From: the human T2T-CHM13v2.0 reference genome, Homo sapiens
DNA: 64,000 nucleotides
Assembly (NCBI RefSeq): GCF_009914755.1
Contig: NC_060926.1
Direction: 5' to 3' (one strand)
The notes below the pieces were generated by a model that saw only the letters and a list, made by a program, of their open reading frames with translations, did no database searches and was not told the origin of the DNA. This document shows, piece by piece, positions 15,609 through 19,084 of this stretch. The stretch's first letter is position 1. Each line of letters starts with the position of its first letter. A program made the translations under genes and the position numbers.

Positions 15609-16195
15609 CCTCCTGAAACTTATAAGCAGCCACTCAGGCTTTCTATGCCCTGCATGGACTGCAATTTACCCTGTACTCGAGGTACACTAAATGCTTTCTT
15701 TTTTCTCTTTTAATTTCGACACATATCTGTTAAGCACCTACTTTATTCTAAATACTGAAGACAATATGGGCCAAGATACAACCTTTATTCTTCTACTTCT
15801 GTTCATACTTTCCTTTCCTTGGAATTTCTCCCACTTCTCTACCCAAGATCAATGCTAGTAAGACTCTGCTCCACTGTGGAATATGCCCACTTCTTTCTTT
15901 AAATCTTTTAAAAATCATTGCCATATTTATAATGACTCTGTTTTGCAATTGCATATTGATGCTATATATTGTTGCAAAAATTAAGTCTTTTAGTTTTTGT
16001 TATATATGTGTGAATACACACACTTGTATTGAAATATTATTATTTTTTTCCCTATCCCATCATGAATAGCTGAGGGAAGAAAGTTTATAGTCCACAGTAA
16101 CCAACCCAGCCCTTGGTATATGGGAAATGTTGAAAGGGTACAAATAGATATAATACTAGATAACAGAGCCTTTGTAACATTGCTTCTGCCTTATT

Positions 16196-17752
16196 TATTT
16201 TTTTTTTTATTTATTTTTTTTTTATTATACTCTAAGTTTTAGGGTACATGTGCACATTGTGCAGGTTAGTTACATATGTATACATGTGCCATGCTGGTGC
16301 GCTGCACCCACTAATGTGTCATCTAGCATTAGGTATCTCTCCCAATGCTATCCCTCCCCCCTCCCCCAACCCCACCACAGTCCCCAGAGTGTGATATTCC
16401 CCTTCCTGTGTCCATGTGATCTCATTGTTCAATTCCCACCTATGAGTGAGAATATGCGGTGTTTGGTTTTTTGTTCTTGCGATAGTTTACTGAGAATGAT
16501 GGTTTCCAATTTCATCCATGTCCCTACAAAGGATATGAACTCATCATTTTTTATGGCAGCATAGTATTCCATGGTGTATATGTGCCACATTTTCTTAATC
16601 CAGTCTATCATTGTTGGACATTTGGGTTGGTTCCAAGTCTTTGCTATTGTGAATAGTGCCGCAATAAACATACGTGTGCATGTGTCTTTATAGCAGCATG
16701 ATTTATAGCCCTTTGGGTATATACCCAGTAATGGGATGGCTGGGTCAAATGGTATTTCTAGTTCTAGATCCCTGAGGAATCGCCACACTGACTTCCACAA
16801 TGGTTGAACTAGTTTACAGTCCCACCAACAGTGTAAAAGTGTCCCTATTTCTCCACATCCTCTCCAGCACCTGTTGTTTCCTGACTTTTTAATGATTGCC
16901 ATTCTAACTGGTGTGAGATGATATCTCGTAGTGGTTTTGATTTGCATTTCTCTGATGGCCAGTGATGATGAGCATTTCTTCATGTGTTTTTTGGCTGCAT
17001 AAATGTCTTCTTTTGAGAAGTGTCTGTTCATGTCCTTCGCCCACTTTTTGATGGGGTTGTTTGTTTTTTTCTTGTAAATTTGTTTGAGTTCATTGTAGAT
17101 TCTGGATATTAGCCCTTTGTCAGATGAGTAGGTTGTGAAAATTTTCTCCCATGTTGTAGGTTGCCTGTTCACTCTGATGGTAGTTTCTTTTGCTGTGCAG
17201 AAGCTCTTCAGTTTAATTAGATCCCATTTGTCAATTTTGGCTTTTATTGCCATTGCTTTTGGTGTTTTGGACATGAAGTCCTTGCCCACGCCTATGTCCT
17301 GAATGGTAATGCCTAGGTTTTCTTCTAGGGTTTTTATGGTTTTAGGTCTAACGTTTAAATCTTTAATCCATCTTGAATTGATTTTTGTATAAGGTGTAAG
17401 GAAGGGATCCAGTTTCAGCTTTCTACATATGGCTAGCCAGTTTTCCCAGCACCATTTATTAAATAGGGAATCCTTTCCCCATTGCTTGTTTTTCTCAGGT
17501 TTGTCAAAGATCAGATAGTTGTAGATATGCGGCATTATTTCTGAGGGCTCTGTTCTGTTCCATTGATCTATATCTCTGTTTTGGTACCAGTACCTTGCTG
17601 TTTTGGTTACTGTAGCCTTGTAGTATAGTTTGAAGTCAGGTAGTGTGATGCCTCCAGCTTTGTTCTTTTGGCTTAGGATTGACTTGGCGATGCGGGCTCT
17701 TTTTTGGTTCCATATGAACTTTAAAGTAGTTTTTTCCAATTCTGTGAAGAAA
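16196..17752 (-). mobile_element. L1HS Ta (Ta-0) 3' segment with poly(A) tail
   Basis: 3'UTR reads GATGACACATTAGT (Ta 'ACA') and CTTAGAGTATAAT (Ta 'G'). ORF2 reads CCCAAAGGGCTATAAA (Ta-0 G/C pattern, not Ta-1 AAATGAG). Tail is A10-T-A3-T-A11. Confidence 0.95.
16429..17739 (-). pseudogene. L1 ORF2p C-terminal fragment (uninterrupted 436 codons, 5'-truncated, includes CCHC motif)
   Basis: Translation [17 protein letters not shown]...[18 protein letters not shown]...FSLIGGN is L1 ORF2p. It has no promoter, endonuclease domain or RT active site. Confidence 0.92.
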
Positions 17753-18161
17753 TGATTGTTTATCTAGAAAACCCCATCGTCTCAGCCCAAAATCTCCTTA
17801 AGCTGATAAGCAACTTCAGCAAAGTCTCAGGATACAAAATCAATGTACAAAAATCACAAGCATTCTTATACACCAACAACAGACAAACAGAGAGCCAAAT
17901 CATGGGTGAACTCCCATTCACAATTGCTTCAAAGAGAATAAAATACCTAGGAATCCAACTTACAAGGGATGTGAAGGACCTCTTCAAGGAGAACTACAAA
18001 CCACTGCTCAAGGAAATAAAAGAGGACACAAACAAATGGAAGAACATTCCATGCTCATGGGTAGGAAGAATCAATATCGTGAAAATGGCCATACTGCCCA
18101 AGGTAATTTACAGATTCAATGCCATCCCCATCAAGCTACCAATGACTTTCTTCACAGAATT
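17752..18161 (+). mobile_element. Inverted 5' segment of the same L1HS (ORF2 region just after FADD)
   Basis: Encodes [18 protein letters not shown]...PMTFFTE, which directly precedes the minus-strand segment in L1 ORF2. 15 nt (tttcttcacagaatt) occur in both segments. Confidence 0.95.
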
Positions 18162-18464
18162 TTTTTTTTTTTTTTTTTTTTTTGAGACAGAGTCTCGCTC
18201 TGTCGCCCAGGCTGGAGTGCAGTGGCGGGATCTCGGCTCACTGCAAGCTCCGCCTCCCGGGTTCATGCCGTTCTCCTGCCTCAGCCTCCCAAGTAGCTGG
18301 GACTACAGGCGCCCGCCACTACGCCCGGCTAATTTTTTGTATTTTTAGTAGAGACGGGGTTTCACCGTTTTAGCCGGGATGGTCTCGATCTCCTGACCTC
18401 GTGATCCGCCCGCCTCGGCCTCCCAAAGTGCTGGGATTACAGGCGTGAGCCACCGCGCCCGGCC
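18162..18464 (-). mobile_element. AluYa5, full length
   Basis: All five Ya5 diagnostics on the minus strand (CATCCCGG, TAAAACGG, GCGTAGTGG, CTACTTGGG, GATCCCGCC); about 3 differences from recalled consensus; pure A22-24 tail. Confidence 0.95.
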
Positions 18465-19084
18465 TGCTTCTGCCTTATTAAGAAAATCTATAAATTCAGG
18501 GCTTTTGCACCCATGAGGAACAAATAGTTCATGCACTAGAACAGAGGAGTGATATTATGTTGTTTGCACAATTTCGTTTCATTAAGTCTATGACCCTTAA
18601 ATTGCAGCTCCAGCCACCTCAACACAGGGAAGATTAGATGCCATTTGTTTTTCAAAGAGGATTTTTTTTTTTTTCCCTGAGGGTCATGCTTAAGAGGAAA
18701 CAATATTCTCCATTTGTTGGTCAGATTTCCTTATAACATGGTACAAAGATTTCACTGCCTCCTTTTGTGACCATTCACCTCTTTATATTTTCTACATCAT
18801 ACATTCTTTTTCTGTTTTTGGTAGGGGATGATCAGTAAAGCTGAGAATAAAACTGAATGGGGAAGCCTTATTCAGGTAATTTTTCCTTCTTCCCCAGTCA
18901 AGTTCTTAGATTACATAATTTTATGGGGTTGTAGATATTTTCTAAATTTCACTAATTTTCAGAACTGGATGCATTATAATGTTTTGAGAAGTCAATAAGC
19001 TCAATATGAACATAGTTTTTTACCTACATATTGTTTAATAGTACCTTATGATTCTACAACTTAACACCTGTCCTTGATCTGCTA

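What the first reader, a model, noticed from the sequence alone, without database searches (positions are those of the whole stretch)
16181..18479. Full-length AluYa5 and 5'-inverted L1HS Ta-0 share a single 15-bp target-site duplication
Seen, on the minus strand: TSD(aataaggcagaagca), complete AluYa5, A22-24, 410-bp inverted L1 ORF2 piece, 1.5-kb L1HS 3' end, A10TA3TA11TA, then the same TSD. Only one unambiguous TSD bounds the 2.27-kb insert. Established: both subfamilies are human-specific, currently active and often polymorphic. Inference, two models: (a) sequential, where the L1 inserted by twin priming into the young Alu's A tail and its own TSD is hidden in A runs (the Alu end offers a TTTT/GA endonuclease site, and the tail's AA can pair with the L1's UU at the inversion point); (b) one event in which ORF2p copied two RNAs, giving an Alu-L1 chimera with inversion. 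Model (a) is more parsimonious, but the A runs do not match as a TSD (A22 versus interrupted A11), so (b) is not excluded.
Basis: partly seen in the sequence, partly recalled or inferred. Interest (0 to 1): 0.8.

Follow-up and report, generated by a model that had tools for sequence, protein, structure and literature searches.

The report
L1 inserted into Alu tail
A young L1 fragment with an inverted front end sits inside the A tail of a young Alu, most likely from two ordinary, separate insertion events, so the shared flanking repeat is expected and the locus is ordinary.

Summary
- a 15-bp direct repeat;
- a full-length 281-bp Alu of the Ya5 type;
- a run of 24 A;
- a 410-nt inverted L1 ORF2 piece;
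- a 1,529-nt L1 3' end in the Ta-0 state;
- the tail A10-T-A3-T-A11-T-A;
- the same 15-bp repeat.

The two L1 pieces adjoin in L1 coordinates and share 15 nt. That is the signature of twin priming.

The inverted piece starts directly at the end of the A run, with 2 nt of microhomology. This is what a nicked DNA A tail used as the second primer would give. I therefore read the locus as two events: the Alu inserted first and made the 15-bp repeat. The L1 then entered the Alu's A tail.

The L1's own target-site duplication can only be A's.

A one-event Alu/L1 chimera is a class catalogued in 2026 (PMC13174262). Here it would need an extra step that I know of no report of: Alu RNA priming on L1 RNA.

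I could not test allele states in other humans or in apes.

Verdict: ordinary nested insertion, confidence about 0.9, low interest.

The parts
18465..18479 (-). Upstream copy of the 15-bp target-site duplication (AATAAGGCAGAAGCA). The inferred first nick on the opposite strand is at TTATT/AA.
   Evidence: D7, 100% identity, spacing 2284; only 2 matches in the window; sequence context.
18184..18464 (-). Full-length Alu body, 281 bp, of the Ya5 type.
   Evidence: two partial 7SL (Metazoa_SRP) matches on the minus strand, 18349-18463 and 18182-18329, i.e. the two Alu monomers; a 114-nt stretch of it occurs exactly 1,210 times in the genome; it differs from the majority state of 30 such copies at 3 of 281 positions.
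18160..18183 (-). Run of 24 A: the Alu A tail. It is proposed to hold the upstream copy of the L1's A-only duplication. The last 2 A (18161-18160) are microhomology with the inverted L1 piece.
17752..18161 (+). Inverted L1 ORF2 piece, 410 nt, sense on the plus strand. By offset it is about L1 positions 4099-4508 and encodes the end of the reverse-transcriptase domain.
   Evidence: 100% identity over 410 nt to locus L006. RVT_1 profile positions 151-205 of 205, E 6.2e-05, below the curated cut-off because only a fragment is present; in full-length copies this stretch adjoins the direct piece.
17738..17752 (-). First 15 nt of the direct piece. They are repeated in inverse orientation at 18147-18161. 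This is the 15-nt L1 duplication at the inversion junction, with 1 nt of microhomology at 17752.
   Evidence: I2, 15 nt, 100% complementary; the two pieces overlap by 15 nt in the subject copies, e.g. C14:64757401-64757816 and 64757802-64759353.
16224..17752 (-). Direct L1 3' end, 1,529 nt, L1HS in the Ta-0 state. By offset it runs from about L1 position 4494 to the 3' end. It keeps a 444-codon open frame (the ORF2 C-terminal part).
   Evidence: 98.8-99.1% identity to 8 young L1 copies. ACA at piece positions 1436-1438 and G and C at 1042 and 1045; published diagnostics; open frame 16429-17763.
16196..16223 (-). A-rich tail A10-T-A3-T-A11-T-A. It is the L1 poly(A) plus, under the sequential model, the downstream A-only duplication and the remainder of the Alu tail. 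The boundary between them cannot be resolved.
   Evidence: T-interrupted tails occur in both L1HS and Ya5-type copies, so the pattern does not assign the tail to either element.
16181..16195 (-). Downstream copy of the 15-bp target-site duplication.

Best explanation
I read the locus as two separate L1-machinery insertions at one site.

**Event 1.** A full-length Ya5-type Alu inserted by target-primed reverse transcription. The first nick was at TTATT/AA on the strand opposite the Alu sense strand. This made the 15-bp duplication and left an A tail of about 22 A or more.

**Event 2.**
1. L1 endonuclease nicked the T run opposite that Alu tail.
2. The T-run end primed reverse transcription from the poly(A) of an L1HS Ta-0 RNA. 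This gave the 1.5-kb direct piece.
3. The Alu-sense strand was then cut inside or at the end of the A run.
4. Its free end (...AA-3') paired with UU in the L1 RNA, about 1.5 kb from the RNA's 3' end, and primed a second cDNA of 410 nt. This is twin priming.
5. The two cDNAs joined with 1 nt of microhomology, leaving 15 nt of L1 duplicated.

Because both nicks of event 2 lay in the A/T run, the L1's own duplication consists of A only (0 to 11 nt). It cannot be told apart from tail sequence, so only the Alu's duplication is visible.

The anatomy, junctions, microhomologies and subfamily states are shown. The order of events and the nick positions are inferred. The composite has no evident function. 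It is a truncated, rearranged L1 in an intron of a long non-coding RNA gene.
For: 1. **The L1 pieces show twin priming.** They are contiguous in L1 coordinates and share 15 nt (I2; subject overlaps). Twin priming with a small duplication at the inversion point is described in the Background of PMC2912911 and in passages of PMC12350158.
2. **The inverted piece starts exactly at the end of the A run.** There are 2 nt of microhomology (AA to the L1's TT). In twin priming the 5' junction marks the DNA 3' end that served as primer. Here that end is the Alu tail and not the 15-bp duplication. In PMC2912911 (passages), 577 of 605 5'-inverted L1 had microhomology at this junction, about 70% of them 2-5 bp. 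5'-inverted copies were 344 of 1,120 human-specific L1.
3. **An A-only duplication fits on both sides.** Any length up to 11 fits in the A24 upstream and the A11 or A10 downstream.
4. **A-rich stretches of Alu are documented insertion hotspots.** Priming on the T run leaves a very short duplication or none that can be recognised (PMC2836564, passages).
5. **The Alu alone has all marks of a normal insertion.** It starts at its first base directly after the duplication, has an endonuclease-like site and has a typical tail length.
6. **No second copy of the composite exists in this genome.** Only the locus itself covers the whole 2,901-nt query. 40 of 7,440 candidates were scored. This argues against copying of a pre-made composite.
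Against: - No allele with the Alu alone was seen. No other human or ape genome could be searched here, so the order of events is inferred from geometry only.
- The L1's own duplication cannot be demonstrated.
- Divergence does not order the events. The Alu has 3 departures in 281 bp, 2 of them at CpG. The L1 has 7 private and 3 nearly private changes in about 1.9 kb.
- Both subfamilies were active at the same time, which is also what a one-event chimera predicts.
- PMC13174262 (sections 10 and 12, and passages) reports 452 Alu/L1 composites bounded by one duplication and reads them as single events. The rival is therefore not without precedent.
Confidence: 0.9

Rival explanations
1. One-event Alu/L1 chimera. 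A single break at TTATT/AA received the L1 cDNA from the poly(A) end. Meanwhile a free Alu RNA used its A-tail 3' end as a primer on the same L1 RNA (AA on UU) and was extended by ORF2p for 410 nt. The first cDNA then switched onto this product and ran on through the Alu RNA to its 5' end. That end was joined to the upstream target copy.
For: - One 15-bp duplication with an endonuclease-like site bounds both elements.
- The Alu is full length, sense and at the 5' side, as in most of the 452 catalogued Alu/L1 chimeras (PMC13174262, section 12).
- Both subfamilies were active at the same time.
- No L1-specific duplication can be shown.
Against: - Simple template switching or RNA ligation puts the partner and the L1 in the same orientation (PMC13174262, Figure 7 legend). 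Here the L1 piece that touches the Alu tail is inverted.
- The route therefore needs RNA-primed reverse transcription by an Alu RNA on L1 RNA, followed by a switch onto that product. I know of no report of this, and I ran no dedicated search for it.
- The same junction follows without extra steps from a nicked genomic Alu tail.
- The catalogue holds no L1HS and no AluYa5 entry in its Alu table, and neither strand of this duplication in any of its 4 files.
- The authors say such chimeras became rare in recent human history.
Confidence: 0.04
2. L1 first, Alu second. The 5'-inverted L1 made the 15-bp duplication. The Alu later inserted exactly at the L1's 5' junction.
For: The 15-bp repeat directly follows the tail on the L1 side. 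Its length is in the usual L1 range of 14-16 bp (PMC2912911).
Against: - The Alu would need its own duplication. The sequence before the Alu (ending ...GAAGCA) and the sequence after its tail (ATTCTGTG...) share nothing.
- The nick site that this model implies is a poor endonuclease site.
- The insertion would have to land by chance on the exact L1 junction.
Confidence: 0.02
3. The composite was formed elsewhere and copied here as a unit, either by retrotransposition of a read-through transcript or by segmental duplication.
For: A single duplication bounds the whole insert.
Against: - Only the locus itself matches the whole 2,901-nt query in this genome. 40 of 7,440 candidates were scored, so the search is not exhaustive.
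- The one other locus that aligns across the inversion (chr4, L002) has different break points, lacks the Alu and is 97.9% identical.
- The inverted L1 piece holds T runs such as TTTT. From general knowledge, these would stop a polymerase III transcript that starts at the Alu.
- The flanks are not duplicated.
Confidence: 0.01
4. Assembly artefact that joins an Alu and an L1 which are not adjacent in the real genome.
For: None was found. It could not be tested, because no reads were available.
Against: The junctions are precise and make mechanistic sense: microhomologies, a 15-nt L1 overlap and an exact 15-bp flanking repeat. The annotation supplied with the finding states that the assembly is the telomere-to-telomere CHM13 genome.
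Confidence: 0.01

Closest known systems
5'-inverted L1 insertions made by twin priming (Ostertag and Kazazian 2001, not read here; described in the Background of PMC2912911, and in passages of PMC12350158)
   Same: - Two L1 segments lie in opposite orientation and are contiguous in L1 coordinates.
- There is a small duplication (15 nt) at the inversion point.
- There is microhomology at the 5' junction (2 nt) and at the inversion junction (1 nt).
- There is a 3' A-rich tail.
- About 31% of human-specific L1 have this form.
   Different: The primer end was an Alu A tail and not unique target DNA. The L1's own duplication is therefore made of A only and cannot be seen.
Nested retroelement insertions into A-rich stretches of Alu (PMC2836564, Levy, Schwartz and Ast 2010; passages read)
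   Same: The L1 endonuclease targets the T run opposite an Alu A stretch. The T run is used for priming, so the recognisable duplication is short or absent. The inserted element has the same orientation as the Alu.
   Different: That paper's clearest hotspot is the internal A-rich linker, hit by other Alus. Here the target is the terminal A tail and the inserted element is an L1 with an inversion.
Alu/LINE-1 'chimeric insertions' (PMC13174262, Law and Burns 2026; summary, sections 10 and 12, passages and supplementary tables searched)
   Same: A full-length sense Alu lies at the 5' side of a truncated L1. One duplication of at least 7 bp bounds both. An endonuclease-like site is present. The two subfamilies were active at the same time.
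   Different: - The L1 piece that abuts the Alu is inverted, which the template-switch and RNA-ligation models do not give.
- Arrival together is untested here.
- The locus is not in their tables. Their Alu table has 0 L1HS and 0 AluYa5 entries, and the duplication is absent from all 4 files.
U6/L1 and other small-RNA/L1 chimeras (as summarised in PMC13174262)
   Same: They are two-part inserts bounded by a single duplication, with a full-length sense partner at the 5' side.
   Different: Those partners have no genomic copy at the site before the event. They also offer no A tail that could act as an endonuclease target, so a sequential origin is not available to them.

Membership tests
5'-inverted L1 (twin priming) | Two L1 segments in opposite orientation that adjoin in L1 coordinates, with a small duplication or deletion at the inversion point | tested here: met
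   (I2: 15-nt arms, 100% complementary); in full-length copies the two pieces adjoin and overlap by 15 nt; 410 nt at 100% identity and 1,555 nt at about 99%.
5'-inverted L1 (twin priming) | Microhomology between the primer end and the L1 at the 5' junction and at the inversion junction | tested here: met
   the last 2 A of the A run can be read as L1 (AATT). One T is shared at 17752.
5'-inverted L1 (twin priming) | Own target-site duplication flanking the L1 | tested here: inconclusive
   Only A runs flank the L1 (A24 upstream; A10 and A11 downstream). An A-only duplication of 0-11 nt is possible but cannot be told apart from tail sequence.
L1HS subfamily Ta-0 | ACA at positions 5929-5931; G and C at positions 5535 and 5538 (T and G in Ta-1) | tested here: met
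   The diagnostics are quoted from 10.1101/179705 and PMC12350158 (passages). In the direct piece ACA is at 1436-1438, and G and C are at 1042 and 1045. The spacing of 394 equals 5929 minus 5535. Among 9 comparators, 8 have G and C and 1 has T and G.
AluYa5 | Full-length dimeric 7SL-derived element with an A tail | tested here: met
   two partial 7SL matches on the minus strand; it aligns over positions 1-281 with 23 of 30 related copies. A24 tail.
AluYa5 | The five Ya5 diagnostic substitutions relative to AluY | tested here: inconclusive
   No labelled consensus was available. By my recall all five are present. By tools, a 114-nt stretch covering four of those positions occurs exactly 1,210 times in the genome. 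The element differs from the majority state of 30 such copies at 3 positions. That fits a young, high-copy subfamily.
Alu/LINE-1 chimeric insertion (PMC13174262) | Alu at the 5' side of the L1, with both bounded by one duplication of at least 7 bp | tested here: met
   a 15-bp exact repeat directly before the Alu's first base and directly after the L1-side tail.
Alu/LINE-1 chimeric insertion (PMC13174262) | Both segments present or absent together across genomes (arrival at the same time) | not testable with these tools
   No other human or ape genome is held. The supplementary table of PMC12350158, which was cut when stored, has no entry at these chr2 coordinates.
Alu/LINE-1 chimeric insertion (PMC13174262) | The partner and the adjoining L1 sequence have the same orientation, as template switching or RNA ligation gives | tested here: not met
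   The L1 piece that abuts the Alu tail is inverted. The criterion is taken from the Figure 7 legend.

The most novel reading that the evidence does not exclude
The composite arose in one event in which a free Alu RNA, through its A-tail 3' end, primed reverse transcription on the L1 RNA inside the same ORF2p complex. That would be 'twin priming' from an RNA primer and not from the nicked target. The first cDNA then copied this product and the Alu RNA. The result would be a human-specific Ya5/L1HS chimera with an inversion. It would show that ORF2p can use a bound Alu RNA as a primer during integration.
Probability: 0.04. Interest if true: 0.6.

Novelty: already known. Interest (0 to 1): 0.15.

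Why it matters
As a nested insertion it matters little. It is one more young L1 that used an Alu A tail as its endonuclease target.

Its modest value is as a worked example for a current question. Composites of an Alu and an L1 bounded by one duplication are now being catalogued as single-event chimeras (PMC13174262). A sequential insertion into an Alu tail gives the same outline, because the second duplication is hidden in A's.

Where the L1 carries a 5' inversion, the junction shows which 3' end acted as primer. That helps to tell the two origins apart without population data.

If the site is polymorphic, its three possible alleles (empty, Alu only, Alu plus L1) would give a direct test.

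Tried and rejected
**Copy or source of the composite in the same genome.**
- a 161-nt junction query found nothing, not even itself, because common words are skipped. This result is uninformative.
- with a 2,901-nt query, only the locus itself covers the whole length.
- the chr4 locus L002 aligns across the inversion, but it is an independent event with different break points.

**Source L1 sharing private variants.**
- a 55-nt stretch holding two private variants occurs exactly at 4 places, including this one. It occurs at 144 places with up to 1 mismatch.
- the three other exact places are old L1 copies, 86.9-94.9% identical to the direct piece.
- No young relative sharing both variants is present in this assembly. 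The other 5 private variants were not searched.

**Ordering the events by divergence.** Inconclusive. The counts are small, CpG sites play a role, and the L1's private changes may be inherited from its source.

**Assigning the downstream tail by its T-interrupted pattern.** One Ya5-type copy (L019) has a very similar pattern. However, T-interrupted tails occur in 3 of 30 Ya5-type comparators and in 5 of 8 L1 comparators, so the pattern decides nothing.

**Polymorphism from the literature.**
- the supplementary spreadsheet of PMC12350158 (cut when stored) has no entry at these chr2 coordinates.
- Other supplements of that paper are PDFs that could not be read. They, and public call sets, may hold the answer.

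**Chimera catalogue.** The tables of PMC13174262 were searched for AluYa5, L1HS and both strands of the duplication. The locus is not listed.

**Other steps that gave nothing.**
- Ostertag and Kazazian 2001 is not held.
- PMC3415434, PMC3812793 and 10.1101/2025.10.25.684559 (passages) gave no statement on insertions into existing Alu tails.
- I ran no search aimed at L1 insertions into terminal Alu tails that returned a direct count.
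Full report
**1. Observation**

Read on the minus strand, window 18479-16181 holds the following parts in order:
- a 15-bp repeat, AATAAGGCAGAAGCA, at 18479-18465;
- an Alu body of 281 bp, 18464-18184, which starts at its first base directly after the repeat;
- a run of 24 A, 18183-18160;
- 410 nt of L1 in inverted orientation, 18161-17752;
- 1,529 nt of L1 in direct orientation, 17752-16224;
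- the tail A10-T-A3-T-A11-T-A, 16223-16196;
- the same 15-bp repeat, 16195-16181.

The repeat occurs only at these two places in the 64-kb window, even when 2 mismatches are allowed. Shuffled sequence gives 0.23 matches on average.

Rfam finds two partial 7SL matches on the minus strand that correspond to the two Alu monomers.

The plus-strand frame of the inverted piece matches the end of the reverse-transcriptase profile (RVT_1 positions 151-205 of 205, E 6.2e-05). The direct piece keeps a 444-codon open frame.

**2. The L1**

I searched the window's own genome with 2,901 nt around the insert. The tool scored 40 of 7,440 candidates.

- Only the locus itself covers the whole query.
- In full-length young L1 copies, the stretch matching the inverted piece and the stretch matching the direct piece lie side by side and overlap by 15 nt. 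An example is C14:64757401-64757816 and 64757802-64759353.
- The same 15 nt appear as a perfect inverted repeat in the window, at 17738-17752 and 18147-18161.

The L1 is therefore a 5'-inverted copy with a 15-nt duplication at the inversion point and 1 nt of microhomology there. This form is attributed to twin priming (PMC2912911 Background; PMC12350158 passages).

Identity to comparators:
- the inverted piece is 100% identical over 410 nt to L006;
- the direct piece is 98.8-99.1% identical to eight young copies.

Subfamily:
- The direct piece has ACA at piece positions 1436-1438, and G and C at positions 1042 and 1045.
- Two papers give the diagnostics as ACA at 5929-5931 for Ta, and G and C at 5535 and 5538 for Ta-0 (passages).
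- The spacing of 394 agrees, so the Ta-0 call holds.
- By this offset the direct piece starts near L1 position 4494, and the inverted piece covers about 4099-4508.

Private changes:
- Against nine comparators, the direct piece has 7 private and 3 nearly private substitutions.
- The inverted piece has none.

**3. The Alu**

- A 114-nt stretch of the Alu occurs exactly 1,210 times in the genome (617 forward, 593 reverse, including this copy).
- Against 30 of those copies, the element departs from the majority state at three positions, 195, 199 and 276. Two of the three are at CpG. Each is shared with a different single comparator, so they are not a sub-subfamily signature.
- Among the 30 comparators, 13 have 0 departures, 10 have 1, 3 have 2, 3 have 3 and 1 has 4.
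- This Alu is therefore not among the youngest of its kind.
- The 'Ya5' name rests on my recall of the five diagnostic positions, all of which are present. No labelled reference was at hand.

**4. What the junctions say**

In twin priming, the 5' junction of the inverted segment marks the DNA 3' end that primed the second cDNA. Here that junction is the end of the A run, not the 15-bp repeat.

The last two A can pair with the UU of the L1 RNA at the point where the inverted piece starts. A microhomology of 2 nt is typical. In PMC2912911, 577 of 605 5'-inverted L1 had microhomology at this junction, and about 70% had 2-5 bp.

A DNA strand that reads Alu sense and ends in a free A-run 3' end is exactly what L1 endonuclease produces when it cuts an existing genomic Alu tail. 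The first nick in the opposite T run gives an ideal primer for the L1 poly(A). The second nick in the A run gives the twin primer.

Both nicks lie in A/T, so the L1's duplication is A only. Any length up to 11 fits inside the upstream A24 and in the downstream A11 (or part of the A10).

Levy and co-workers describe the same logic for insertions into the Alu's internal A stretch.

**5. The one-event rival**

Law and Burns (PMC13174262; summary, sections 10 and 12, passages) report 452 Alu/L1 composites bounded by one duplication.
- Most have a full-length sense Alu at the 5' side.
- The authors read them as chimeras made by RNA ligation or template switching.
- Their criterion is that both parts are present or absent together across species.
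- They note that such events became rare in recent human history.

Their own scheme says that ligation or template switching puts both parts in the same orientation. In this locus the L1 piece that touches the Alu tail is inverted.

I went through the possible single-event routes.
- **Extending the target's own 3' end into Alu-sense DNA.** This needs an antisense Alu RNA primed exactly at the Alu's boundary. I consider that improbable.
- **Alu RNA as primer.** A free Alu RNA primes on the L1 RNA with its A tail. The first cDNA then switches onto that product and reads on into the Alu RNA. This is the only coherent route. It needs steps that I know of no report of, although I ran no dedicated search for them.

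The locus is not in their tables. The Alu table has 0 L1HS and 0 AluYa5 entries, and the duplication is absent from all four files.

I give this reading about 4%.

**6. Other rivals**

- **L1 first, Alu second.** This fails because the Alu would then lack any duplication of its own.
- **A copied composite.** No second copy exists in this genome. The one locus that aligns across the inversion, on chr4, has different break points, no Alu and 97.9% identity.
- **An assembly artefact.** I could not test this, but the junctions make mechanistic sense.

**7. Things that did not decide**

- **Divergence.** It does not order the two events.
- **Tail pattern.** The T-interrupted tail resembles that of one Ya5-type copy (L019). 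However, such tails occur in 3 of 30 Ya5-type and 5 of 8 L1 comparators.
- **Source search.** A 55-nt stretch with two private L1 variants is found exactly at three other places, all old L1 copies 86.9-94.9% identical. No young source or sibling sharing both variants is in this assembly.
- **Allele states.** Those in other humans and apes could not be examined. The one spreadsheet I could search (PMC12350158, cut when stored) has nothing at these coordinates, and its PDF supplements were unreadable.

**8. Verdict**

This is an ordinary nested insertion: an L1HS Ta-0 copy with a twin-priming inversion inside the A tail of a Ya5-type Alu. The single visible duplication is expected, not anomalous.

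Confidence is 0.9. The kind is already known, and interest is low.

The useful point is methodological. Where the L1 is 5'-inverted, the junction identifies the primer end. That helps to separate sequential insertions into Alu tails from true one-event chimeras.

Noticed in passing
L002 (G000:C4:62067772-62069720), compared with window 16196-18145: A second 5'-inverted young L1, on chr4, has break points within about 16 nt of those here. Its inverted piece starts 16 nt further in and ends 11 nt further out. There is no duplication at its junction, no adjoining Alu, and identity is 97.9% over 1,958 aligned columns. It is an independent twin-priming event at nearly the same L1 positions. The search ranked it high because it aligns across the inversion, so the coincidence may be a selection effect.
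   Followed up: partly
window 18280-18331 (-) and 18204-18263 (+): There are sub-threshold Rfam matches to mir-1268 (73.4 bits, gathering score 83) and mir-3135 (32.4 bits, gathering score 80) inside the Alu. These microRNA families evidently overlap Alu sequence. The matches are not evidence of a microRNA gene here.
   Followed up: no
L019 (G000:C1:27317500-27320613), tail after the Alu body: A Ya5-type Alu on chr1 has the tail A16-T-A3-T-A11-T-A5..., which is strikingly like the A10-T-A3-T-A11-T-A next to the downstream repeat here. It could hint that the downstream tail is Alu-derived. However, T-interrupted tails are also common in L1HS copies (5 of 8 examined), so I treat it as coincidence.
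   Followed up: partly
window 16429-17763 (-): The direct L1 piece keeps an uninterrupted 444-codon frame up to the ORF2 stop, in keeping with its youth. The frame has no Pfam match, and being truncated it cannot encode a working protein.
   Followed up: partly
window 16711 (direct-piece position 1044): A nearly private A-to-G change (shared by 1 of 9 comparators) lies between the two Ta-0/Ta-1 diagnostic bases. Short-read subfamily callers that match a fixed word at this site might fail on this copy.
   Followed up: no
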